DNA of 8,517 nucleotides from Caedibacter taeniospiralis. GTDB lineage: Bacteria; Pseudomonadota; Gammaproteobacteria; Francisellales; Francisellaceae. The notes beneath the pieces are model-generated. The model had not been told where the DNA came from. It saw only the letters and a list, made by a program, of their open reading frames with translations, and searched no databases. The position numbers were made by a program, and so were the translations under genes. Within the stretch, counting starts at the first letter, position 1. Every line of letters begins with the position of its first letter. Where the stretch lies: contig NZ_PGGB02000017.1 in assembly GCF_002803295.2 (NCBI RefSeq), forward strand, positions 1,009-9,525. The letters are read 5' to 3'. Below, one piece after another: positions 1 through 8,508 of the stretch.

Positions 1-614
1 TCGGGTGAATAGATGATATACAAGGTACTGCCTGGCGATTCCCCAGAGGTACACCAGCCATACGGGCAATAAATTTCATTCGTGCCCGATAACGCACTAG
101 TAGACGATAACTGCAAAGTGCTAAGGGGAAGCTTCTGTGAATTCCAATAATCATCACCAAACAATGTCCACCACCAACCAGAGCCATTTGTCCCCAGTGA
201 AAATGCCAGTGAGCGTTCTGGTCGTTCGGTCGAGTGAACGGACATATGCATGACCGAATTCCTGGTGTCGCAAGTAGGGGTTAAATCACGTTCAAAATGC
301 CAAACCTGCCCATGATCATCTTTATCAACACAGACTAAACCTGCCTGGTTTGCGGGCACAGGGATCTTTACAATAACGGTCTTTTCTTGTTTGGGAAAGG
401 TACATTTGCCACCATCACACGAATCATCGCCGTCTGGATACATACATTGTGTACCAGGTGTCTGGGTAAACACAAAGGTTTCATCCTGCGTAGGCGCTAC
501 ACTGTTATAGACACAAAAACCGAGATTCCCCGTGGCACCTGCATAACCTCCATCAAACAACGCCACATTGCTGGCAATCACACCTAAACATTGTAATAAT
601 TTTATCTTTCTCAT
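1..614 (-). CDS. Hypothetical exported cysteine-rich protein, partial (N-terminal ~204 aa visible; 3' end lies beyond the left window edge)
   Basis: Absent from the supplied ORF track because it is open to the window edge. Hand translation of the reverse strand from ATG (614-612) gives MRKIKLLQCLGVIASNVALFDGGYAGATGNLGFCVYNSVAPTQDETFVFTQTPGTQCMYPDGDDSCDGGKCTFPKQEKTVIVKIPVPANQAGLVCVDKDDHGQVWHFERDLTPTCDTRNSV...GSGWWWTLFGDDYWNSQ...IYCPYGWCTSGESPGSTLYIIYSP. I checked every in-frame triplet down to base 3 and found no stop. There is an in-frame upstream stop at 629-627 and a GAGGA Shine-Dalgarno at 627-623, 8 nt from the ATG. The basic/hydrophobic N-terminus looks like a signal peptide and at least 9 Cys are visible. 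I recognise no family. Confidence 0.7.
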   Translation of the reverse strand, partial: MRKIKLLQCLGVIASNVALFDGGYAGATGNLGFCVYNSVAPTQDETFVFTQTPGTQCMYPDGDDSCDGGKCTFPKQEKTVIVKIPVPANQAGLVCVDKDDHGQVWHFERDLTPTCDTRNSVMHMSVHSTERPERSLAFSLGTNGSGWWWTLFGDDYWNSQKLPLSTLQLSSTSALSGTNEIYCPYGWCTSGESPGSTLYIIYSP

Positions 615-910
615 CTTGATGTTCCTCTAATAATTGGGTTGGAAATATACGAGATATAATATTTAATTATTTTGGCGAATCATAATAAAACGCCCCTATG
701 AGGTTGTTGGAAATTGCTTTAGATGCCAGATCTAAAGTCTAAAAACACGAACATCCCTGGAAGTTATGCTACAGATTGTTTTTTGTTTTGTCTATCATTT
801 TGTAAATAAAAAACAATAATTTTAACTAATTGTCATAAATTATTGTTATGAGTTTTAGCTCTGACCATCCTTCCTCCCGCTGTCATGGTGCTGAGCACCT
901 ATGCGCTTTG

Positions 911-953
911 AAAAACACCCCGCCTTGCAAGGCACCCCTCTTGAAAAGAGGGG
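911..953 (-). terminator. Putative intrinsic terminator region downstream of the large minus-strand ORF (two tandem GC-rich hairpins followed by T5)
   Basis: Read on the minus strand: CCCCTCT-TTTCA-AGAGGGG (953-935, 7-bp stem), then GCCT-TGCA-AGGC (933-922), then GGGGTG and TTTTT (915-911). It starts 36 nt after the TAA stop at 991-989. The T-run follows the weaker hairpin, so the geometry is not canonical. Confidence 0.4.
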
Positions 954-988
954 AATAACGGCTGGTGGGCGGAAAATATGCAGAGTTG

Positions 989-3900
989 TTATGAATAGGG
1001 TAAAAGAGCAGGTAACGGATAAGCAAATACTATGCTAGAAGCTATGGCACGATTAAAATCACTTGGGGTTCTGTCGCTTGCAGATACCCTGTCGTAGAAA
1101 TGGTGAGAACCAGCAGCAACTATGCCTGTCGCAGCTGCACCGCAAAGTATATGTGCTATATCATAAGAAGAGAGCTGCTTTTCTATTTTATACCCAAATA
1201 TGGCTGGAGACAGATACTGTTGAAAAGCCAACCTGGCAAGTTCTGATACCATTCCACGGACAAATCCGCAGATTTCGTGCCCATAATTTTCCTCAGGAAT
1301 ATATTTTTCACATAAATATGCACCTCCACCATCAATAAATCCATGTATCGCACCATTTAAAAGCGTCCCCATGAGCTTATTTGACCACTCTGAGTGTGAG
1401 TGATGATGCAGCTGGTTTGAAAACTCCCACAAAATATGTTCCATTACCCCACTTAATATTGCCTGAATCGACTTGTGATCCACAGCACTGGTCATTTCCA
1501 AATACTGGAATATACTGCTGAACATTCGACCGCCTAATTCAATAGACGGTTTTATTATCTTATCTGTCAAAGGTTCTTCTTTTGCTTCTGAGAAATAATC
1601 AACAATGGCATTTAAACTTGTGGTTGTAATAATAGAAAGTATCAGTGCATTAAGCATGACTCGCCGTTCTATAAGACCATTATTGTCCAGCTGACTTGAG
1701 TAAGCATCTTTGGTGTAAGCCAGATATATTACAGAGCTTGATATGGCAGGAACGATAAGCTCTTTAACTGCTGATTGAATAGTTTCATAAAAATCTGAAT
1801 CCTTAAGATTTATGATTTGATCGTTTAATTTTGAAGATACTCTACTACTTTGCTCATAGATAGCCTCAGGTTGGTTAGCCAATAATGCTTGAGGGTGAAC
1901 TGAAAACACATCCCCGTAGGGAATATTGAATACATCTAAGAAATAGCTCGTAATATCACCGCCTTGATCTATGGTGACAGCATTAAAGCCATTCTTTTCA
2001 AACGAAAAATAATCATAACTCAGTAGCGTCTGTGCGCTATCATCTATAGAAACTGGTCTCCTGCTTTCATCTAATTTAAACTTAACTGTCTGGTTGTTTC
2101 TATCATATAGAGTGAAATCACTGTATGAATTAAATACTAACTTAGACTCAAAATATTTATCATCGTCACCGTAGACCTTAGCAGTCAAGGCTTTATCCCT
2201 GAAGTCGTATTTATATGTTAAAGCTTGATGATTAAAATATGGTAACTTGATATTCTGAAAATAGTTCTCTGCATGGATACTGTCTAGCAAACCGTAATTT
2301 CCGTAATGGTATGCATATCTATTTAGACCCTCTTGTAATGTTGTTGTTTTATCTTCAGTTGTCATTTGCATTGACTTTCCTGATGAGAAATCAGCTGATA
2401 GCTTCTTATTGGCAATGTTATCAAAGTTAAACTTAATTCCCAATATTTGTTGTAACTGCGAAAACGTAACCGTGTCTGAGTGACCTTGGAAATTCACACT
2501 TATACTTGAAGCGGCATAGTCTATTGCATATGCCGAAATGGTTTTATATAAATTGCTAAGCCTAGTGCCAACTTTTGTCATGGCATTGTCTATTGCAAAC
2601 TGCACCACATTGGTAAGCTCGTCTCCTTGAGCATTTCTAATAGAATTTACCCTTTTTATTTCACATTTATTTTTTTCAGTGCTGAGATTGACATAGAAGA
2701 TATCAGAAATAAATTTTTGTATTCCGAGCATGCGATCAATCAAGGAGGTCGACTTGAGTATATCGTTATATTCATCGAAATATTGAAACTCTTTTTGCAA
2801 ACCTGAAGGGTAAGAAATAGAGCTGAGTTTATTAAATGGGTTATACGTAAATTTTGTTGTTTCAGATACAGGGTTGGTGACGGATTGAATTAATTTTTCC
2901 TGATTTACCTGATCTATCAGCACAGTAGCCATCTTCTGATCATTTTTTTTAATGATGACTTTATTATCCGTGGGGAAATATTCAAGCGTTATGTCCATTA
3001 AAATCTTTTCGCTCTCTGATAAGCTTCGAATACAAATGGTTGTCAGTGAGGACTTAGCATAAGAAAATTCGATGGTTATGCCGTTAAAGTTGTCTTCTAC
3101 TTTTACAGGATGTTGTCCACGGTCAAATGTAAAAGCTTTTTGTTCAGTAGAGTAAGTTGAGCTGATATCGTCATGCTTCTCACTGGTAACTTCATAGTAC
3201 TTTGAGTTGTATTCTATGGCGGTAACGTTCTGATTTTCATAGATAAGTCTTGGAAGTATATTTAAGCCCCATCCATAAAAATTACCTTCCTGTGAAGAGT
3301 CATAAGTTACCGAAAACATGCCTGTTTTGGTCGTATAAATTTCAATAGGAAAAATATCAATGCTTTCCTGGTTGTGTTTTAATCTCTTGTCAGCCTTATT
3401 TTTTTTCACCTGCTCTAGTAAGCATTGGGGCAGGTGATTACCAAGTTTTTTACTATCCATAAATTCTGCATAAATCTGATCAATGTTGTCAGGAGCTATT
3501 TGCTCAGTAAATGTATATTCTTCACCATCCTCTTCCAGGGCGAATGAAACATATAAATTTTTATACGCTTTTAAGGCATTCTCCATACGTCTCTTAGTCT
3601 CAGCTTGCAGCTCTGACTCGTCATCATAAAGATATCTCAGCTCTCTCCTCAGGGGCTCATAAGCCTCTGCAAAATATTGTTTTGCCATATCCTGTAATGA
3701 GGACCATGGATATTTACCCTCAGCAAACTCCTTAGGATTTATGATTGCCACCTCCCCAGTGTTATACAGCCAGTTTTTATAAGGAAATTCAGTAGCATTA
3801 AAGCCTGTATCCTTGTAATACAATTTTTTACGTATAGATTGGTCATTATTTAACAAGTCTGTAATACCAGCTGGCTTCACATAAAATATTGGTCCAGGGT

Positions 3901-4057
3901 AAACTCGTGGGCAAAGAGTATAGAATGCGCTCGGAGTGCTAGACACTAACCTGCCATTAATGTAGGTACACACGAATTTTCCAGCTGTTGTTGCATAACT
4001 CTGTAAGTAACAGAACAACGATGCAGGTACAATAATGGCTCGAAGAAATTTACTCAT
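989..4057 (-). CDS. Large (1022 aa) Sec-exported protein of unknown function, with degenerate YD/RHS-like beta repeats and a hydrophobic His-rich helical C-terminal module
   Basis: Longest ORF in the window (track 989..4108 using a TTG start). I prefer ATG 4057-4055. It gives a canonical signal peptide MSKFLRAIIVPASLFCYLQSYA|TTAGK with a K/R n-region, a hydrophobic core and a SYA small-x-small cleavage site. The alternative starts TTG-4108 and ATG-4093 fall inside the predicted promoter and Fur-like box. The Shine-Dalgarno is weak (AGG directly abutting the ATG). The frame is uninterrupted for 3 kb in AT-rich DNA, which makes it very unlikely to be non-coding. I see no catalytic motif (no HExxH, no convincing P-loop, no DPxGL Rhs core). 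Confidence 0.9.
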   Translation of the reverse strand: MSKFLRAIIVPASLFCYLQSYATTAGKFVCTYINGRLVSSTPSAFYTLCPRVYPGPIFYVKPAGITDLLNNDQSIRKKLYYKDTGFNATEFPYKNWLYNTGEVAIINPKEFAEGKYPWSSLQDMAKQYFAEAYEPLRRELRYLYDDESELQAETKRRMENALKAYKNLYVSFALEEDGEEYTFTEQIAPDNIDQIYAEFMDSKKLGNHLPQCLLEQVKKNKADKRLKHNQESIDIFPIEIYTTKTGMFSVTYDSSQEGNFYGWGLNILPRLIYENQNVTAIEYNSKYYEVTSEKHDDISSTYSTEQKAFTFDRGQHPVKVEDNFNGITIEFSYAKSSLTTICIRSLSESEKILMDITLEYFPTDNKVIIKKNDQKMATVLIDQVNQEKLIQSVTNPVSETTKFTYNPFNKLSSISYPSGLQKEFQYFDEYNDILKSTSLIDRMLGIQKFISDIFYVNLSTEKNKCEIKRVNSIRNAQGDELTNVVQFAIDNAMTKVGTRLSNLYKTISAYAIDYAASSISVNFQGHSDTVTFSQLQQILGIKFNFDNIANKKLSADFSSGKSMQMTTEDKTTTLQEGLNRYAYHYGNYGLLDSIHAENYFQNIKLPYFNHQALTYKYDFRDKALTAKVYGDDDKYFESKLVFNSYSDFTLYDRNNQTVKFKLDESRRPVSIDDSAQTLLSYDYFSFEKNGFNAVTIDQGGDITSYFLDVFNIPYGDVFSVHPQALLANQPEAIYEQSSRVSSKLNDQIINLKDSDFYETIQSAVKELIVPAISSSVIYLAYTKDAYSSQLDNNGLIERRVMLNALILSIITTTSLNAIVDYFSEAKEEPLTDKIIKPSIELGGRMFSSIFQYLEMTSAVDHKSIQAILSGVMEHILWEFSNQLHHHSHSEWSNKLMGTLLNGAIHGFIDGGGAYLCEKYIPEENYGHEICGFVRGMVSELARLAFQQYLSPAIFGYKIEKQLSSYDIAHILCGAAATGIVAAGSHHFYDRVSASDRTPSDFNRAIASSIVFAYPLPALLPYS

Positions 4058-4078
4058 CCTAAACGATCTCAATTTTAT

Positions 4079-4097
4079 GATAACGGTTATCATTATG
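4079..4097. promoter_or_regulatory. Fur-box-like operator overlapping the predicted -10 of the large ORF promoter
   Basis: GATAACGGTTATCATTATG matches the classical 19-bp Fur consensus GATAATGATAATCATTATC at 15/19 positions by hand alignment. It is embedded in a perfect 8-1-8 palindrome ATGATAAC-G-GTTATCAT (4077-4093). That palindrome also fits the 7-1-7 description TGATAAT-N-ATTATCA with one symmetric mismatch per arm. Confidence 0.5.
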
Positions 4098-4119
4098 CTT
4101 AAACACAATTAAATAGCAA
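4092..4119 (-). promoter_or_regulatory. Putative sigma70 promoter for the large ORF (-35 TTGCTA, 16-nt spacer, -10 CATAAT)
   Basis: On the minus strand TTGCTA is at 4119-4114, the 16-nt spacer at 4113-4098 and CATAAT at 4097-4092. This predicts a transcription start near 4085, about 28 nt upstream of ATG-4057. It is a hand motif match only and the region is AT-rich, so false positives are easy. Confidence 0.3.
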
Positions 4120-4255
4120 GCTTCAATTATCAGGAAACTGTTTCATAGGCTATACATGTGGTACGAGAAATAACTATATCTGATGCAAATGCTGAAACCA
4201 GCAGCAACCTCAGGCAGAAAAGGCGGGGCAGCCAACTGCTTAGAAGCGTGACCAA

Positions 4256-4280
4256 AATAAATTCATAAATAGAATTTATT
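4256..4280. promoter_or_regulatory. Perfect 9-7-9 inverted repeat containing a T-N11-A (LysR-type) motif; candidate binding site for the adjacent LTTR
   Basis: AATAAATTC-ATAAATA-GAATTTATT has 9-bp arms that are exact reverse complements. The core ATTC-N7-GAAT gives T(4262)-N11-A(4274). It lies in the divergent intergenic region, about 65-90 bp upstream of the likely lysR-family start and about 200 bp upstream of the large ORF start. Confidence 0.4.
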
Positions 4281-4317
4281 TTTACTAATTGTGAATGTTT
4301 TTTTACCTGTCAGTGGT

Positions 4318-4344: not shown

Positions 4345-5286
4345 ATGGGCGTATGTATGAGCTCTGCAGTGTACAATCTGAATTACTATCTGTTAAAGCT
4401 GTTTCACACAATATATGAAACAAAAAGTATTTCATCTTCAGCTGAGAAACTTTTTGTAACTCAGTCAACGGTAAGTAATGGGTTAAACAGATTAAGAAGT
4501 ATTTTTAATGATCAATTGTTTTATCGCAAGGACAATATGATGGTACCAACAAATCGTTCCATCAGCTTGTTCCCAGTGGTTACTCAAGCCATGGCGCAAT
4601 TTGAGCGCTTATCTTTTTACGAGCAGCCTTTTGATCCTAAAACAGTAGCAAGTCATTTTCGCATAGGTATTTCCCCCATTTTGCAGGTGCTTATTTATCC
4701 TGAACTGTTGATGCGTATGAAAAAATATAAAGTCACTCTGGATGTTGATGTACTAAGGGTTCCGAAGAACTCTATGGCTGTTGATTGGCATGAATATGAT
4801 TTTATACTTACGCAGATGGATTTTGTTCATGGTTACGAAAGAGCCTTTATGTATGAAGATGAGTTTCTTGTGCTGATGAACAAACATCATCCTCTTGCAA
4901 ATAAAGGTGTACTTGATATTAAGGACTATGCAAAGGCAACTCATGTAGCTACTCATTATTCTTCCCAAAACGATTCAGATCCATTAAATGCACTTCTTAA
5001 TAAGCACCAGATTAGTCGGAACATATTAGCAACCACAGATAATTTGGGAGCCATATATCAGTTAGTTCTGGATCATAACTGCGTGCTAACGTCAACGAGT
5101 AGCTTATACCAGATGTATAAGAAGCTTTTTTTTATGAATTTAGCCGCATTAAGGCTGAATGTTGAGCCAAACAAAATATCATACTATCTCTATTATTCGG
5201 ATAAGGTCATGATTGAGCCATCCCATGTATGGTTTAAGAATGAAGTGTTGTCCTTAGTGAAAGAAAAGCTTTGCCTAAAAACGTAA
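4345..5286 (+). CDS. LysR-family transcriptional regulator (LTTR), transcribed divergently from the large exported protein gene
   Basis: The N-terminal winged-HTH signature NLNYYLLKLFHTIYETKSISSSAEKLFVTQSTVSNGLNRLRSIFNDQLFYRKDNMMVPTNRS matches the LTTR pattern LNLLxxFxxVxxxxSxxxAAxxLxxSQPAxSxxLxRLRxxxxDxLFxRxxxGMxPT (LeuO/NodD-like subgroup). A substrate-binding-type domain of about 200 aa follows and the total length of about 310 aa is typical. The start is ambiguous: ATG-4345 (MGVCMSS...) or ATG-4357 (MSSAVYNLN...). Neither has a good Shine-Dalgarno. The track's GTG-4291 start is unlikely. Confidence 0.9.
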   Translation: MGVCMSSAVYNLNYYLLKLFHTIYETKSISSSAEKLFVTQSTVSNGLNRLRSIFNDQLFYRKDNMMVPTNRSISLFPVVTQAMAQFERLSFYEQPFDPKTVASHFRIGISPILQVLIYPELLMRMKKYKVTLDVDVLRVPKNSMAVDWHEYDFILTQMDFVHGYERAFMYEDEFLVLMNKHHPLANKGVLDIKDYAKATHVATHYSSQNDSDPLNALLNKHQISRNILATTDNLGAIYQLVLDHNCVLTSTSSLYQMYKKLFFMNLAALRLNVEPNKISYYLYYSDKVMIEPSHVWFKNEVLSLVKEKLCLKT

Positions 5287-5493: not shown

Positions 5494-5657
5494 GGTTGGG
5501 AGAAAAATGACTGTCTGGTCATTTCGTGCTCCGTTTCGCGCAGGATGACAGTGGGCTGAAAGTCTGTTTAAGCCTGGAATTCTGAAAGTTAATTGAAAAG
5601 GTGAAGTATTGTGCTAACAGGTGTAATCTGCCATACCGCTTGGCTAAGGAGAAGGAA

Positions 5658-6653
5658 GTGACGACGCGTCTAAAAACAATCATCAGTGGGCTGATTTTGG
5701 TATTGGTTGTGATCGCTTTAGCGCTGGTGTGGCGCTTTTCACGGGAAGATGCAACAGCTTTATCAGGGTATATTGAGGCAAATCTGAGTTATATATCCCC
5801 AAGTGTGTCGGGCAAATTGGTCACCCTGGCAGTGCATAAAGGGGAATATGTTAAAAAAGGGCAAGTGTTGTTTACGTTAGAAACCACACCATATCAGCTG
5901 AAATTTGAATCTGATCAACAGTTGACGCTTGCCGATAAATACAATTACGAGGATCTGTTGACGGGCAAACAACAGCCTTATATTAACCAGGCTGAAGCAG
6001 AGATTGCTAAGGCAAAAGCAGATTTAAACTACGCTCAACTAAGCTACCAGCGTGCAGCATCTTTACTTAAAACAGGGGATATCTCACAGCAGGAGTACGA
6101 TCTGGATCTGTCTCAATATGATCAGGCTCAGGCGCAGTTAGCAACGCTGAACGCGCAATTGGAGACCTATAAGATTAGTGCACGGGATAAACTGATCCAA
6201 AGTGCGGATGCCAGGTTTCACTCCAGTGAGAAAAATCAGGAATTATCGCAATGGAATCTGTCCGAGACACAGGTTTCCTCACCAGAGGCGGCGATGGTGT
6301 TTGATACCTATTATTGGGTGGGAGAACAAGTACAAAGTTTCAGACCAGTGGTATCTTTGCTGGTACCACATCAAATCAAGCTTATTTTCTATGTGACAAA
6401 AACGCAATTACATGAGATTGGCATTGGGCAAAAAATCTATTTTACGGTGGATGGTTCGGCGGAAAAGACAACGGCGACGATACGCTATATTTCGCCAGAA
6501 GCTGAATATACCCCGCCTGTCATCTATAGCCAGTCAACTCGTACAGATTTAAGCTACCGAGTGGAAGCGGCGGTTGAACCAGGTCTGGATAATGGACAAA
6601 AAGTATGGCACCCAGGACAACCTGTGAGCGTCTATCTTCAGGGAGTGCGGTAA
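5658..6653 (+). CDS. HlyD-family periplasmic adaptor (membrane fusion protein), YbhG-like, for an ABC-2 exporter
   Basis: It has a single N-terminal TM anchor (TIISGLILVLVVIALALVW) and a lipoyl/barrel-sandwich motif (SGKLVTLAVHKGEYVKKGQVLFTLE). A long Q/A-rich coiled-coil hairpin follows (AEAEIAKAKADLNYAQLSYQRA...QAQAQLATLNAQLE). The C-terminal segment ISPEAEYTPPVIYSQSTRTDLSYRVEA parallels E. coli YbhG as I recall it ([27 protein letters not shown]). I place the start at GTG 5658-5660, in frame with the track's 5601 start, because a strong AAGGAG Shine-Dalgarno at 5646-5651 sits 6 nt upstream. Confidence 0.9.
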   Translation: MTTRLKTIISGLILVLVVIALALVWRFSREDATALSGYIEANLSYISPSVSGKLVTLAVHKGEYVKKGQVLFTLETTPYQLKFESDQQLTLADKYNYEDLLTGKQQPYINQAEAEIAKAKADLNYAQLSYQRAASLLKTGDISQQEYDLDLSQYDQAQAQLATLNAQLETYKISARDKLIQSADARFHSSEKNQELSQWNLSETQVSSPEAAMVFDTYYWVGEQVQSFRPVVSLLVPHQIKLIFYVTKTQLHEIGIGQKIYFTVDGSAEKTTATIRYISPEAEYTPPVIYSQSTRTDLSYRVEAAVEPGLDNGQKVWHPGQPVSVYLQGVR

Positions 6654-7567
6654 TGACCTTTGTCATTGATGTGAAGAATATCAGTAAAAGTTTTTATGGA
6701 AGAAAAGTTGTTAATAATGTTGCGCTTCAAGTGGAAAAAGGCGATATCTACGGCTTTTTAGGACCTAATGGTTCTGGTAAAACGACGACGATTCGCATGA
6801 TTTGCGGGCTTTTGACGGCTGACAGCGGAGAAGGGACCTGTCTTGGGTATGACATCAGAACTGAGGGCTTTTTCATCAAGCAGAAAGTTGGTTACATGAC
6901 ACAAAAATTTAGCCTCTATAGCGATCTGACGATAGAGGAGAACCTTCATTTTTTTGCCAGGCTTTTTAATGTTGCAAATCGCAAAGAGAAAGTACAAAAA
7001 ATCATCGATCAACTGGAAATTGGTCGGGCGCGCAAAAGCCAGCTTGCAGGAACCTTATCCGGTGGCTGGAAACAAAGACTTGCCCTGGGCGTTGCGACAA
7101 TTCATGAGCCAGAGCTGCTCCTGCTGGATGAGCCAACGGCGGGTGTTGATCCAAAAGCCAGGCGTGATTTTTGGGATGAAATTTTCCGTTTGGCGCAGCA
7201 AGGGATCACGACATTAGTGAGCACACACTATATGGATGAAGCTGAACGCTGTAATAAGCTTGCTTACGTTGCCTACGGTAACTTATTAGTCAATGGCACC
7301 TGTGCTGAAGTCATCGATTCGGTGGGTCTTAGAACGTGGGTGGTGCGCGGGGAGAGCTTATCCTTATTGCAAAAGGGACTGCAGGAAAATGATAAAATTG
7401 CTCAAGTCTCGGCATTTGGTCTGGATCTGCACGTGAGCGCGTCAAAAAGTGTTGATATAACGGATATCATTAGGAGTAACAGCAGATATAACTGGCAAGA
7501 GATCAAACCCTCGCTTGAAGATGTTTTTATTCATTTAATGCAACAACATCAGGATAACTTTTCATGA
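6653..7567 (+). CDS. ABC transporter ATP-binding protein (single NBD, ABC-2/DrrA-type)
   Basis: The motifs present are Walker A GPNGSGKTT, Q-loop YMTQ, ABC signature LSGGWKQRL, Walker B LLLLDEPT with D-loop and H-loop STHYMDEA. I prefer ATG 6653-6655 (MTFVIDVKNISKSF) as the start. It overlaps the upstream TAA by one base (TAATG) and has a GGGAG Shine-Dalgarno at 6641-6645. The track's 6605 start would overlap the adaptor gene by 49 nt. Confidence 0.95.
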   Translation: MTFVIDVKNISKSFYGRKVVNNVALQVEKGDIYGFLGPNGSGKTTTIRMICGLLTADSGEGTCLGYDIRTEGFFIKQKVGYMTQKFSLYSDLTIEENLHFFARLFNVANRKEKVQKIIDQLEIGRARKSQLAGTLSGGWKQRLALGVATIHEPELLLLDEPTAGVDPKARRDFWDEIFRLAQQGITTLVSTHYMDEAERCNKLAYVAYGNLLVNGTCAEVIDSVGLRTWVVRGESLSLLQKGLQENDKIAQVSAFGLDLHVSASKSVDITDIIRSNSRYNWQEIKPSLEDVFIHLMQQHQDNFS

Positions 7568-8508
7568 AGCAGCCACGTATTTTTAGCCTGCAGCGCTATA
7601 TTGCAGTAATGACAAAAGAGTTCACTCACATGATCCGCGACAGGATCACTTTTGCGATGGTTGTGGGTATTCCGATAATTCAATTGATCTTATTTGGCTA
7701 TGCCATTAACAGCAATCCGCGGCATCTGCCGACGGTTTTGAACAATTATGACAATACGCCAGAGGTAAGAGCATTAGTCTCAGCCTTGCAGAACAGTCAA
7801 TATTTTGATATTACCCATGTCAATCTTTCTGAAAAAACGGCACAGACCCTGATGCAAAAGGCTGAGACTCAGTTTATTATTGAAATCCCGGCAGGATTCA
7901 CCCAAAAGATGTTACGGGGTGACAAGCCGAGCATATTGCTCGTTGCTGACGGGAGTGATCCTTCTGCCTCTGGCAATGCCATTAATGCCATCAACGAGCT
8001 GACAAATAGAGTGTTTCAGCGTGATTTCATGAAAAATGGACTGACCTATCTGCAAGCAGAAAAACCAGCCTTTAATGTAGTGGTGCATAATAAATATAAC
8101 CCCGAACAAATTACTCAGTACAATATAGTGCCAGGGCTCGCAGGCGTAATTCTGACCATGATTTTGGTGATGGTGACCGGGCTTGCTGTCACGCGTGAGC
8201 GTGAGGTGGGGACAATGGAGTCGCTTTTAGCAACACCCGTGAGACCGCTTGAAGTGATTCTTGGTAAGATCACGCCTTATATTCTTGTGGGTTATGTGCA
8301 ATTGCTGTTGATTTTAGTTTCTGCGATTATGCTTTTTAATGTGCCATTTTATGGTAATGTCATGCTGCTTGTTCTGGCGACATTCCCATTTATTGTGGCC
8401 AATCTTCTGGTAGGGATTACTTTTTCAACCCTGGCGAAAACGCAGCTACAAGCGATGCAGATGGCTATTTTTTTCTTTTTGCCCTCAATCACACTACATG
8501 ACACCTAA
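7564..8508 (+). CDS. ABC-2 type transporter permease (YbhS/YbhR-like), apparently truncated at the C-terminus
   Basis: The ATG overlaps the ATPase stop (ATGA, 7564-7567), indicating translational coupling. The topology is typical of this family: TM1 (FAMVVGIPIIQLILFGYAI), a large periplasmic loop, then clustered TMs after the REREVGTMESLLATP motif. The frame ends at ...AIFFFLPSITLHDT*. Homologues as I recall them continue after LPSxxLSGF for about 60 more residues (rest of TM5 and TM6). Confidence 0.85.
   Translation: MKQPRIFSLQRYIAVMTKEFTHMIRDRITFAMVVGIPIIQLILFGYAINSNPRHLPTVLNNYDNTPEVRALVSALQNSQYFDITHVNLSEKTAQTLMQKAETQFIIEIPAGFTQKMLRGDKPSILLVADGSDPSASGNAINAINELTNRVFQRDFMKNGLTYLQAEKPAFNVVVHNKYNPEQITQYNIVPGLAGVILTMILVMVTGLAVTREREVGTMESLLATPVRPLEVILGKITPYILVGYVQLLLILVSAIMLFNVPFYGNVMLLVLATFPFIVANLLVGITFSTLAKTQLQAMQMAIFFFLPSITLHDT

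What the first reader, a model, noticed from the sequence alone, without database searches (positions are those of the whole stretch)
989..4057. Orphan 1022-aa Sec-exported protein with a three-part architecture: candidate novel secreted toxin or exoprotein
**Seen in sequence**
- A 3-kb uninterrupted frame encodes a protein with a clean signal peptide (MSKFLRAIIVPASLFCYLQSYA|TT).
- The first ~240 aa form a charged, mixed region with two early Cys.
- The next ~470 aa are Y/F/N/S/T-rich beta-type sequence with YD-like repeats.
- The last ~270 aa form a hydrophobic helical region.
- I recognise no enzymatic motif and no known family.

**Established knowledge**
- A delivery or shell region followed by a variable C-terminal effector is the layout of polymorphic and Rhs/Tc-type toxins.

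**Why this one is atypical**
- It is shorter than Rhs shells.
- It lacks the DPxGL core.
- It uses Sec.
- It has no obvious downstream immunity ORF.
- It has no cognate TpsB, T1SS or T6SS gene in the window.

**Inference**
- A standalone secreted effector, perhaps membrane-active and possibly aimed at eukaryotic or competitor cells.
- Control would come from the adjacent LTTR and iron (see other findings).
Basis: partly seen in the sequence, partly recalled or inferred. Interest (0 to 1): 0.8.

Follow-up and report, generated by a model that had tools for sequence, protein, structure and literature searches.

The report
Orphan secreted protein with vestigial YD repeats
This is a real 1022-residue gene for an exported protein found only in Caedibacter taeniospiralis (the Paramecium "killer" symbiont) and its closest uncultured relatives; it keeps only a short remnant of Rhs/YD toxin repeats, evolves fast, is broken in some relatives, and its function, possibly a host- or competitor-directed effector, is still untested.

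Summary
The ORF is real. It lies on the minus strand at 989-4057 and encodes 1022 aa, with a conserved Sec-type signal peptide that the NCBI annotation (WP_100550445.1) cuts off.

Searches of 5.8 and 1.8 billion proteins, PDB, Pfam, NCBIfam, PHROGs, PADLOC, plasmids, phages and viral contigs found relatives only in Caedibacter-like contigs. The one link to known proteins is a short Rhs/YD segment at aa ~306-446. It has one clear repeat at aa 390-419 (hhalign E = 3e-6). That is far too little for an Rhs shell, and there is no Rhs core or DPxGL motif.

So the "shell + effector" reading is not supported. "Fast-evolving, iron-regulated, lineage-specific exoprotein" is.

- **Selection:** dN/dS is about 0.35-0.55 for aa 1-710 and about 0.85-1.0 for the helical C-terminal 312 aa, against about 0.06 for the neighbouring transporter genes.
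- **Decay in relatives:** the gene is interrupted by a MITE-like repeat, an IS-type insertion and a third break in environmental relatives.
- **Regulation:** a palindromic Fur-box-like site, invariant in four lineages, overlaps its −10 hexamer.
- **Structure:** AlphaFold2 failed (pLDDT 30-38), so the fold is unknown.

Verdict: a moderately interesting orphan and a reasonable but unproven toxin or effector candidate.

The parts
989..4057 (-). Full coding sequence, 1022 aa plus a TAA stop at 989-991. It is WP_100550445.1 extended by 59 N-terminal codons.
   Evidence: the ATG start is conserved in P0002, P0003 and P0004
3992..4057 (-). Sec-type signal peptide, aa 1-22 (MSKFLRAIIVPASLFCYLQSYA, predicted cleavage after SYA)
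   Evidence: Sequence features and conservation in four lineages. No SignalP run was possible.
3143..3991 (-). N-terminal orphan region, aa 23-305. It is charged with mixed helix and strand, has Cys30 and Cys49, and has no homologue outside the family.
   Evidence: dN/dS 0.55
2720..3142 (-). Rhs/YD-repeat-like beta segment, aa 306-446. This is the only part with detectable relatives outside the family.
   Evidence: All phmmer hits to Rhs proteins fall here. hhalign core is aa 306-426, probability 88%, E = 3e-6, reversed control 0.5.
2801..2890 (-). The single clear YD repeat, aa 390-419 (IQSVTNPVSETTKFTYNPFNKLSSISYPSG)
   Evidence: Pfam RHS_repeat 22.6 bits, cut-off 22; 28.5 bits, iE 7e-11 against a repeat HMM built here
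1928..2719 (-). Middle orphan region, aa 447-710. It is rich in Y, F, N, S and T and has 'YD' dipeptides, but no significant repeat signal. The weak hhalign alternative at aa 650-683 has E = 0.02.
   Evidence: dN/dS 0.36, p = 4e-4 for a departure from 1
992..1927 (-). C-terminal orphan region, aa 711-1022. It is predicted all-helical and evolves fast, with conserved blocks between hypervariable ones.
   Evidence: low-confidence DSSP; dN/dS 0.85 and 0.99; clustering of variable columns p = 0.001; no relatives even at E <= 10
1592..1669 (-). Invariant hydrophobic helix, aa 797-822 (RRVMLNALILSIITTTSLNAIVDYF). It is the only TM-like segment.
   Evidence: KD19 peak 1.69; invariant in three lineages; Eisenberg <H> 0.56
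4079..4097 (-). Fur-box-like site CATAATGATAACCGTTATC. It matches 16 of 19 positions of the E. coli consensus and contains a perfect 8-1-8 palindrome at 4077-4093.
   Evidence: One match against 0.01 expected; palindrome; invariant in L001, L002 and L003
4092..4119 (-). Sigma-70-like promoter TTGCTA-16-CATAAT. Its -10 hexamer overlaps the Fur-like site.
   Evidence: invariant in four lineages
4254..4282 (.). Perfect 11-nt inverted repeat AAAATAAATTC-N7-GAATTTATTTT with a T-N11-A core. It is a candidate LTTR binding site.
4357..5286 (+). Divergently transcribed LysR-type regulator, 309 aa from the conserved Met
   Evidence: HTH_1 and LysR_substrate hits; same low GC3 as the target; absent from the Cysteiniphilum locus; carries an in-frame stop in L001
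911..934 (-). Terminator-like hairpin and T-run downstream of the stop codon, inside a GC-rich stretch of about 95 nt that L005 lacks
1..614 (-). 5' part of the next gene. It encodes a 240-aa Cys-rich orphan protein with its own signal peptide (WP_100550444.1). It is a neighbour, not an immunity-type partner.

Best explanation
The gene encodes an accessory exoprotein found only in the Caedibacter lineage.

**Shown**
- It is an intact gene in C. taeniospiralis and in one close relative.
- It has a conserved Sec-type signal peptide.
- Its only recognisable ancestry is a short Rhs/YD beta-repeat segment (aa ~306-446), flanked by N-terminal and C-terminal regions with no relatives anywhere.
- The first 710 aa are under moderate purifying selection.
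- The helical C-terminal 312 aa change at a near-neutral average rate, with invariant blocks between hypervariable ones.
- The promoter carries a conserved Fur-box-like palindrome over its -10 hexamer.

**Inferred**
- The protein is made when iron is scarce and is moved across the inner membrane by Sec.
- It then acts outside the cytoplasm, either on the cell surface or released into the Paramecium cytoplasm or the medium.
- It works as a host- or competitor-facing factor. The conserved N-terminal two-thirds, including the YD beta-sheet, would be the scaffold or binding part. The variable helical C-terminal domain, with one invariant hydrophobic helix and glycine/alanine-rich helices, would be the interacting and possibly membrane-active part.

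It is not an Rhs or Tc cocoon toxin. It is best seen as a stripped-down descendant, or a chimera, that kept a few YD repeats.
For: - **Real gene and start:**
- **Restricted distribution:**
  - only Caedibacter-like contigs among 5.8e9 and 1.8e9 proteins;
  - nothing in species-representative genomes, metagenome patterns, viral contigs, plasmids or phages;
  - the nearest genus, Cysteiniphilum, keeps the adjacent HlyD/ABC operon but has neither LysR nor the target.
- **Composition:** target and LysR have GC3 of 0.34-0.37, against 0.43-0.48 for the neighbours.
- **YD homology:**
- **Selection:**
  - omega is 0.57 overall, significantly below 1 (p = 2e-4);
  - aa 447-710 give 0.36, and aa 60-435 give 0.35 against L003;
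  - aa 711-1022 give 0.85 and 0.99 in two comparisons;
  - HlyD gives 0.059 and the ABC ATPase 0.058.
- **The C-terminus is not uniformly decaying:** variable columns cluster (p = 0.001) and the longest invariant run is 19 (p = 0.02). The frame is open in all four sequenced copies.
- **Iron control:**
- **Context:** the gene sits among other orphan secreted-protein genes. In one relative it lies next to a true Rhs toxin cassette, which marks a variable host-interaction island.
Against: - There is no functional, structural or expression evidence. AlphaFold2 gave pLDDT 29.9 (full length) and 37.7 (C-terminal domain), so no fold comparison was possible.
- Export was not tested. SignalP was unavailable, and no cognate secretion system for crossing the outer membrane is visible.
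- The gene is inactivated in environmental relatives by a MITE-like insert at codon 56, an IS-type insert at codon ~436-442 and a separate break at codon ~77. Omega near 1 in the C-terminus therefore fits relaxed constraint as well as diversifying selection.
- The Fur-like site is judged against the E. coli consensus. Whether Caedibacter has a Fur protein with that specificity was not checked.
- There is no immunity-type partner gene.
Confidence: 0.4

Rival explanations
1. It is a gene in decay: a relic of a once larger Rhs/YD protein that is still open in this strain but no longer has a selected function. This would be expected in a reductive endosymbiont genome.
For: - Three independent disruptions in close relatives.
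- Omega of 0.85-1.0 in the C-terminal third.
- Low GC3, consistent with AT drift.
- Only a vestige of YD repeats is left.
- The partner LysR gene is pseudogenised in L001.
Against: - A 3066-nt frame is open in the window and in L001, and the fragments in L003 and L005 have no frameshifts.
- Omega is significantly below 1 for aa 1-710.
- C-terminal substitutions cluster around invariant blocks.
- The promoter, Fur-like site and signal peptide are invariant across lineages.
Confidence: 0.22
2. It is a non-toxic envelope or surface protein, such as a periplasmic or outer-surface scaffold or adhesin. The YD beta-segment and N-terminal region would bind a ligand, possibly linked to iron or haem uptake given the Fur-like control. 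The C-terminal helical domain would be structural.
For: - Signal peptide with no immunity gene.
- Fur-box-like promoter, typical of iron-uptake genes.
- His-rich patches (HHHSHSEW, GSHHFYD) in the C-terminus.
- The acidic, mostly non-TM C-terminal domain.
- Purifying selection on the first 710 aa.
Against: - No similarity to any known adhesin, haemophore, receptor or lipoprotein family.
- Fast evolution and repeated loss are unusual for a nutrient-uptake component.
- No C-terminal beta-barrel or OMP signature.
Confidence: 0.2
3. It is a single-pass inner-membrane protein. The signal peptide is cleaved, aa 23-~796 lie in the periplasm, the hydrophobic helix at aa 800-821 acts as a stop-transfer anchor, and about 200 aa are cytoplasmic.
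For: The helix at aa 797-822 is the only TM-like segment (KD 1.69) and is invariant in all copies.
Against: - The helix is only marginally hydrophobic (Eisenberg <H> 0.56, below the roughly 0.68 expected of a lone anchor) and rich in T, S and N.
- Flanking charges (RR before it, D/E-rich after it) oppose the positive-inside rule for this topology.
Confidence: 0.08
4. It is a canonical Rhs/Tc-type polymorphic toxin, that is, an encapsulating YD shell plus a cleaved C-terminal toxin. This is the layout the first reader used as a model.
For: - One RHS_repeat hit at threshold, and weak whole-protein hits only to Rhs proteins.
- A true Rhs toxin gene follows the homologue in L001.
Against: - Only about three YD units are detectable.
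- No PF03527 core, no DPxG motif, no DUF6531, PAAR or other N-terminal plug, and no adjacent immunity gene.
- The C-terminal domain is not related to the toxin tip of the L001 Rhs protein (z = 2.9 and 0.9).
Confidence: 0.04

Closest known systems
Rhs/YD-repeat polymorphic toxins of Gram-negative bacteria (T6SS-delivered Rhs effectors; Pfam RHS_repeat PF05593 plus RHS core PF03527)
   Same: It shares detectable YD-repeat homology over aa ~306-446. It has a long N-terminal part followed by a distinct, more variable C-terminal domain. It lies in a variable island that carries a true Rhs gene in a relative.
   Different: - About three repeats instead of dozens, so no shell is possible.
- No Rhs core or DPxGL autoprotease motif.
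- No PAAR, VgrG-binding or DUF6531 N-terminus.
- A Sec signal instead of T6SS delivery.
- No immunity gene.
WapA of Bacillus subtilis (Sec-exported, wall-associated YD-repeat contact-dependent toxin; from my own knowledge)
   Same: Sec signal peptide, then YD-type repeats, then a variable C-terminal domain.
   Different: WapA is more than 2000 aa with many YD repeats, an Rhs-type core and a cognate WapI immunity gene, and it is anchored to a Gram-positive wall. None of these features is present here.
Tc toxin TcB/TcC cocoon and teneurin YD shells (PF25023 TEN_YD-shell; from my own knowledge)
   Same: The same repeat type in the short beta-segment.
   Different: There is no TEN_YD-shell hit for the target, while the L001 neighbour has one in precomputed Pfam. 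There is no beta-propeller, no TcA partner and no aspartyl-protease core, and the size is far below a cocoon.
Symbiont-encoded YD-repeat toxins such as the APSE phage toxin of Hamiltonella defensa (from my own knowledge)
   Same: The biological setting: a protective or 'killer' endosymbiont carrying YD-type toxin genes in variable regions.
   Different: Those are large, phage-borne, repeat-rich proteins. This gene has no phage, viral or plasmid relatives and only a repeat vestige.

Membership tests
Rhs/YD-repeat toxin family | Many tandem YD repeats (tens of beta-hairpins over about 700-1200 aa) able to form a closed shell | tested here: not met
   One repeat passes (aa 390-419). hhalign core is aa 306-426 only, and all other candidate repeats score at noise.
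Rhs/YD-repeat toxin family | Sequence homology to RHS_repeat (PF05593 / TIGR01643) | tested here: met
   - PF05593 scores 22.6 bits against a cut-off of 22, E = 1.4e-4.
- TIGR01643 is just below its cut-off, 14.9 against 15.8.
- Eleven Rhs proteins are the only remote hits among 1.84e9 representatives.
- hhalign E = 3e-6 against a reversed control of 0.5.
Rhs/YD-repeat toxin family | Rhs core domain (PF03527) with the PxxxxDPxGL autoproteolysis motif marking off the C-terminal toxin | tested here: not met
   No PF03527 hit at E <= 1 and no DPxG anywhere in the protein. The L001 Rhs neighbour does have DPTGH at aa 1142.
Rhs/YD-repeat toxin family | Cognate immunity gene immediately downstream | tested here: not met
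   The next gene is 375 nt away, beyond a terminator-like hairpin, and encodes a 240-aa protein with a signal peptide and tandem paralogues.
Rhs/YD-repeat toxin family | N-terminal delivery module (PAAR, DUF6531, VgrG-binding, or a TcB-type propeller) | tested here: not met
   No Pfam or NCBIfam hit in aa 1-305. A Sec signal peptide is there instead.
Sec-exported proteins | N-terminal tripartite signal peptide with a small-x-small cleavage site | tested here: inconclusive
   The sequence features are present and conserved in four lineages. No SignalP-type predictor or experiment was available.
Fur regulon | 19-bp Fur box overlapping the promoter | tested here: inconclusive
   A 16/19 match, unique in the window (0.01 expected), palindromic, overlapping the -10 hexamer and invariant in four lineages. 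Fur binding and the Fur specificity of this organism were not testable.
Pore-forming / membrane-active helical toxin domains (colicin-type, glycine-zipper type) | Helical bundle burying a hydrophobic hairpin, or a GxxxG zipper array; a confirmed fold | not testable with these tools
   AlphaFold2 models are unusable (pLDDT 29.9 and 37.7). The only supporting observations are one hydrophobic helix (aa 797-822) and Gly/Ala-rich helices with Eisenberg <H> of 0.5-0.62. There is no sequence match to any family.

The most novel reading that the evidence does not exclude
The protein is a new kind of Sec-dependent, iron-induced effector of a protist endosymbiont. Its orphan helical C-terminal domain would be a membrane-active or otherwise toxic module acting on Paramecium. 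At the extreme, it could be the long-sought toxin, or a component of the toxin, of the Caedibacter killer trait. That toxin is still unidentified according to PMC5773718 and PMC7297999, and my literature search to mid-2026 found no later identification.
Probability: 0.05. Interest if true: 0.85.

Novelty: new variant of a known kind. Interest (0 to 1): 0.38.

Why it matters
C. taeniospiralis is the classic "killer" symbiont of Paramecium. Its R-body delivery device is known, but the toxin and the immunity mechanism are not (PMC7297999).

This gene can be ranked among the roughly 54 uncharacterised predicted secreted proteins of that genome for several reasons:
- it has toxin-family (YD) ancestry;
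- its C-terminal domain is fast-evolving and mosaic;
- its promoter looks iron-regulated;
- it sits in a variable island where a sister lineage carries a true Rhs toxin.

The work also corrects the public annotation, whose start codon removes the signal peptide.

If it is only a decaying relic, it still shows how Rhs-type genes erode in reductive genomes.

Tried and rejected
1. **Structure route.** AlphaFold2 on the full length (three-sequence alignment) gave mean pLDDT 29.9 and pTM 0.26. On the C-terminal domain alone it gave pLDDT 37.7. I ran no fold search because the matches would be meaningless.
2. **Deeper alignments.** The family has only about four near-identical lineages, so no deeper alignment could be built.
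3. **C-terminal domain related to the L001 Rhs toxin tip?**
   - BLASTP gave E = 0.039.
   - A Smith-Waterman shuffle test gave z = 2.9 for the window protein but 0.9 for its 85% homologue.
   - I rejected this as compositional similarity.
4. **Shared N-terminal module with the downstream secreted protein?** BLASTP found nothing, with E above 10.
5. **More YD repeats in aa 447-710?** The repeat HMM and hhalign gave only noise, with a best E of 0.02 at aa 650-683.
6. **Plasmid pKAP, phage or viral origin?** No match in plasmids, phages or viral contigs.
7. **Is the 291-bp insert a known RNA or intron?** No Rfam match. It is a dispersed repeat.
8. **Expression data.** The secretome table of PMC7297999 lists genes only as 'Hypothetical_protein_CDS_n', so this gene could not be identified in it.
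9. **T1SS reading of the neighbouring genes.** They are HlyD plus a separate ATPase plus an ABC-2 permease, which I read from my own knowledge as the YbhGFSR efflux type. They are conserved next to housekeeping genes in Cysteiniphilum, so I do not count them as a secretion partner.


Full report
**1. The observation**

The window holds one long ORF, on the minus strand, at 989-4108. The ATG at 4057 gives a 1022-aa protein that begins MSKFLRAIIVPASLFCYLQSYA|TT.

The N-terminus has the parts of a Sec signal peptide: K3 and R6, a 12-residue hydrophobic core, S at -3 and A at -1, and no lipobox. I could not run a dedicated predictor.

The same start and signal sequence appear in three other lineages (P0002, P0003, P0004). 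The upstream region is nearly invariant, so the ATG at 4057 is the likely start. The public protein WP_100550445.1 (963 aa, Caedibacter taeniospiralis) starts at an internal GTG, codon 60, and so lacks the signal peptide. A 1022-aa version is also on record.

**2. What is related to it**

Almost nothing is.

- A word-indexed search of 5.8 billion proteins found only the protein itself and an 85% identical homologue.
- An exhaustive phmmer scan of 1.84 billion cluster representatives added two N-terminal fragments and eleven weak hits with E from 3e-5 to 8e-4.
- I scanned seven of those eleven against Pfam, and all seven are true RHS-repeat proteins.
- All eleven align only within target aa 241-557, mainly because one target repeat (aa ~390-430) matches many of their repeats.
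- Pfam gives a single RHS_repeat hit right at threshold, 22.6 against 22 bits, at aa 391-419. NCBIfam's YD model falls just below its cut-off.
- A repeat HMM I built from 226 repeats of the retrieved Rhs proteins finds one clear repeat (28.5 bits) and otherwise noise.
- Profile-profile alignment gives a confident core at aa 306-426: 111 columns, probability 88%, E = 3e-6. The reversed-sequence control gives E = 0.5.
- A profile of the C-terminal 580 aa finds only the family itself even at E <= 10.
- PDB sequences, PADLOC, PHROGs, plasmids, phages, viral contigs and species-representative genomes gave nothing.

The protein is therefore a lineage-restricted orphan with a short YD-repeat segment of about three units. 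It is not a 470-aa repeat region.

**3. Structure**

AlphaFold2 failed on the full length (pLDDT 29.9) and on aa 711-1022 (pLDDT 37.7), because the alignment has only three near-identical rows. I ran no fold search.

The low-confidence models are all-helical over aa ~765-1009. Hydropathy shows one marginal TM-like helix at aa 800-821. Several predicted helices have Eisenberg mean hydrophobicity of 0.5-0.62, which is hydrophobic but below the level of a lone membrane anchor.

**4. Context and distribution**

*L001 (85% homologue).* This metagenome contig is 94.5% identical to the window over 7.7 kb, from the ABC-2 permease gene through the target, ending 234 nt past the stop codon. Beyond that point L001 carries a true 1434-aa Rhs gene and a 121-aa ORF, followed by a rhomboid gene. 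The Rhs protein has seven RHS_repeat hits, DPTGH at aa 1142 and a Gly/Ala-rich hydrophobic tip.

*Window and L005.* Both instead carry genes for small Cys-rich secreted orphan proteins: P0016 in the window, and its orthologue plus a tandem paralogue (P0017) in L005. In L005 these are followed by the same rhomboid gene. This arrangement looks ancestral, and the Rhs cassette in L001 looks like a replacement.

*Cysteiniphilum (nearest genus in the genome collection).* It keeps the HlyD/ABC/ABC-2 operon at 64-84% aa identity, but has SIS, BamE and PilB-like genes upstream and no LysR or target homologue.

*Composition.* The target and LysR also have lower GC3 (0.34-0.37) than their neighbours (0.43-0.48).

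Together this places the target and LysR in a variable accessory island specific to the Caedibacter lineage. The HlyD/ABC-2 genes are not a protein-secretion partner.

**5. Evolution**

| Comparison | Region | dN/dS | p (different from 1) |
|---|---|---|---|
| Window vs L001 | whole target | 0.57 | 2e-4 |
| Window vs L001 | aa 23-305 | 0.55 | 0.087 |
| Window vs L001 | aa 306-446 | 0.39 | 0.23 |
| Window vs L001 | aa 447-710 | 0.36 | 4e-4 |
| Window vs L001 | aa 711-1022 | 0.85 | 0.53 |
| Window vs L003 fragment | aa 60-435 | 0.35 | 7e-4 |
| Window vs L005 fragment | aa 443-710 | 0.375 | 0.015 |
| Window vs L005 fragment | aa 711-1022 | 0.99 | 1.0 |
| Window vs L001 | HlyD | 0.059 | not tested |
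| Window vs L001 | ABC ATPase | 0.058 | not tested |

Within the C-terminal domain, variable columns cluster (p = 0.001). They sit between invariant blocks such as VMLNALILSIITTTSLNAI, DGGGAYLCEKY, PEENYGHEICGF and FAYPLPALLPYS. That pattern argues against uniform neutral decay.

The gene is nevertheless inactivated in related environmental strains, in three different ways:
- a 291-bp GC-rich insert at codon 56 (L003, L004), which is a dispersed mobile repeat with 99% identical copies elsewhere;
- an IS-type insertion at codon ~436-442, recognised from 27-nt inverted repeats at the two contig ends;
- a different break at codon ~77 in L002.

The LysR gene has an in-frame stop in L001, where the target is intact.

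**6. Regulation**

The sequence CATAATGATAACCGTTATC at 4079-4097 matches the E. coli Fur box at 16 of 19 positions. It is the only such match in the window, with 0.01 expected by chance. It contains a perfect 8-1-8 palindrome, overlaps the -10 hexamer of the best promoter-like site upstream of the gene, and is invariant in four lineages.

A perfect 11-nt dyad with a T-N11-A core lies next to the LysR start.

**7. Interpretation**

My best reading (confidence about 0.4) is an iron-induced, Sec-exported accessory protein that faces the host or competitors. The conserved N-terminal two-thirds, including a vestigial YD beta-sheet, would act as scaffold or binding part. The variable helical C-terminal domain would be the interacting, possibly membrane-active part.

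Export, location, activity and fold are all inferred.

The rivals are:
- a relic gene in decay (0.22);
- a non-toxic envelope or iron-related surface protein (0.20);
- a single-pass inner-membrane protein (0.08);
- a canonical Rhs/Tc shell toxin (0.04). This fails four of five defining features tested here.

**8. Novelty and interest**

No paper in the held library describes this protein or identifies the killer-trait toxin.

The protein is a new, strongly reduced variant within the YD-repeat world, with orphan flanking domains. It is a sensible candidate to test with the R-body co-expression feeding assay proposed in PMC7297999.

Three things temper the case:
- nothing here shows toxicity;
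- it is not on a known plasmid, whereas the plasmid pKAP carries the reb operon that builds the R-body delivery device (PMC7297999);
- it is dispensable in relatives.

I score interest at 0.38. For the most novel reading not excluded, that it is the killer toxin or a new effector class, I give a probability of about 0.05.

Noticed in passing
L003:10169-10459; L005:4132-4420; also L004, L006, L007: A 291-bp GC-rich element interrupts the target homologue at codon 56. It recurs at 99% identity in the opposite orientation elsewhere in the same strain's contigs, so it is a MITE-like mobile repeat. It has no Rfam match.
   Followed up: partly
L003:11592-11717 and L005:1-105: The two contig ends that break the homologue at codon ~436-442 carry 27-nt sequences that are reverse complements of each other (96%). 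This is the signature of the terminal inverted repeats of an IS element that split the assembly.
   Followed up: partly
L001:12940-17603: A true 1434-aa Rhs protein and an overlapping 121-aa ORF replace the small secreted-protein genes between the target homologue and the rhomboid gene.
- It has seven RHS_repeat hits, DPTGH at aa 1142 and a Gly/Ala-rich hydrophobic C-terminal tip of about 290 aa.
- Its reading frame opens exactly at the synteny breakpoint, so it may be 5'-truncated.
   Followed up: partly
window 1-614 (-) ; L005:2200-3816: The downstream gene encodes a 240-aa Cys-rich orphan protein with its own signal peptide (WP_100550444.1). A relative carries an orthologue plus a 58% identical tandem paralogue (P0017). 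This is a small Caedibacter-specific secreted family of unknown function.
   Followed up: partly
window 4057-3881 (-), codons 1-59: The NCBI protein WP_100550445.1 starts at GTG codon 60, which removes the conserved signal peptide. The 1022-aa form is better supported.
   Followed up: yes
L001:8350-9267: The LysR-type regulator has an in-frame stop (W to stop) in L001 and is called as two genes there, although the target homologue next to it is intact.
   Followed up: partly
window 4254-4282: A perfect 11-nt inverted repeat AAAATAAATTC-N7-GAATTTATTTT (T-N11-A core) lies just upstream of the LysR start and is conserved in relatives. It is a candidate LTTR operator.
   Followed up: no
window 870-966: A GC-rich stretch of about 95 nt with two hairpins lies just after the target's stop codon. 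It is present in the window and in L001 but is replaced by about 47 nt in L005. It may be a small inserted element that doubles as the terminator.
   Followed up: partly
L005:5575-8574 (-) and 9553-10188 (-): Beyond the rhomboid gene the relative encodes a 999-aa coiled-coil, Ser/Thr-rich protein with no Pfam hit, which looks like an effector, and a 211-aa hydrophobic protein. This suggests the wider region is a host-interaction island.
   Followed up: no
window 5601-8508; L009:8102-11150: The HlyD, ABC ATPase and ABC-2 permease operon is conserved with Cysteiniphilum at 64-84% aa identity and is under strong purifying selection (omega about 0.06). I read it as a YbhGFSR-type efflux system, not a type I protein secretion system.
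   Followed up: partly
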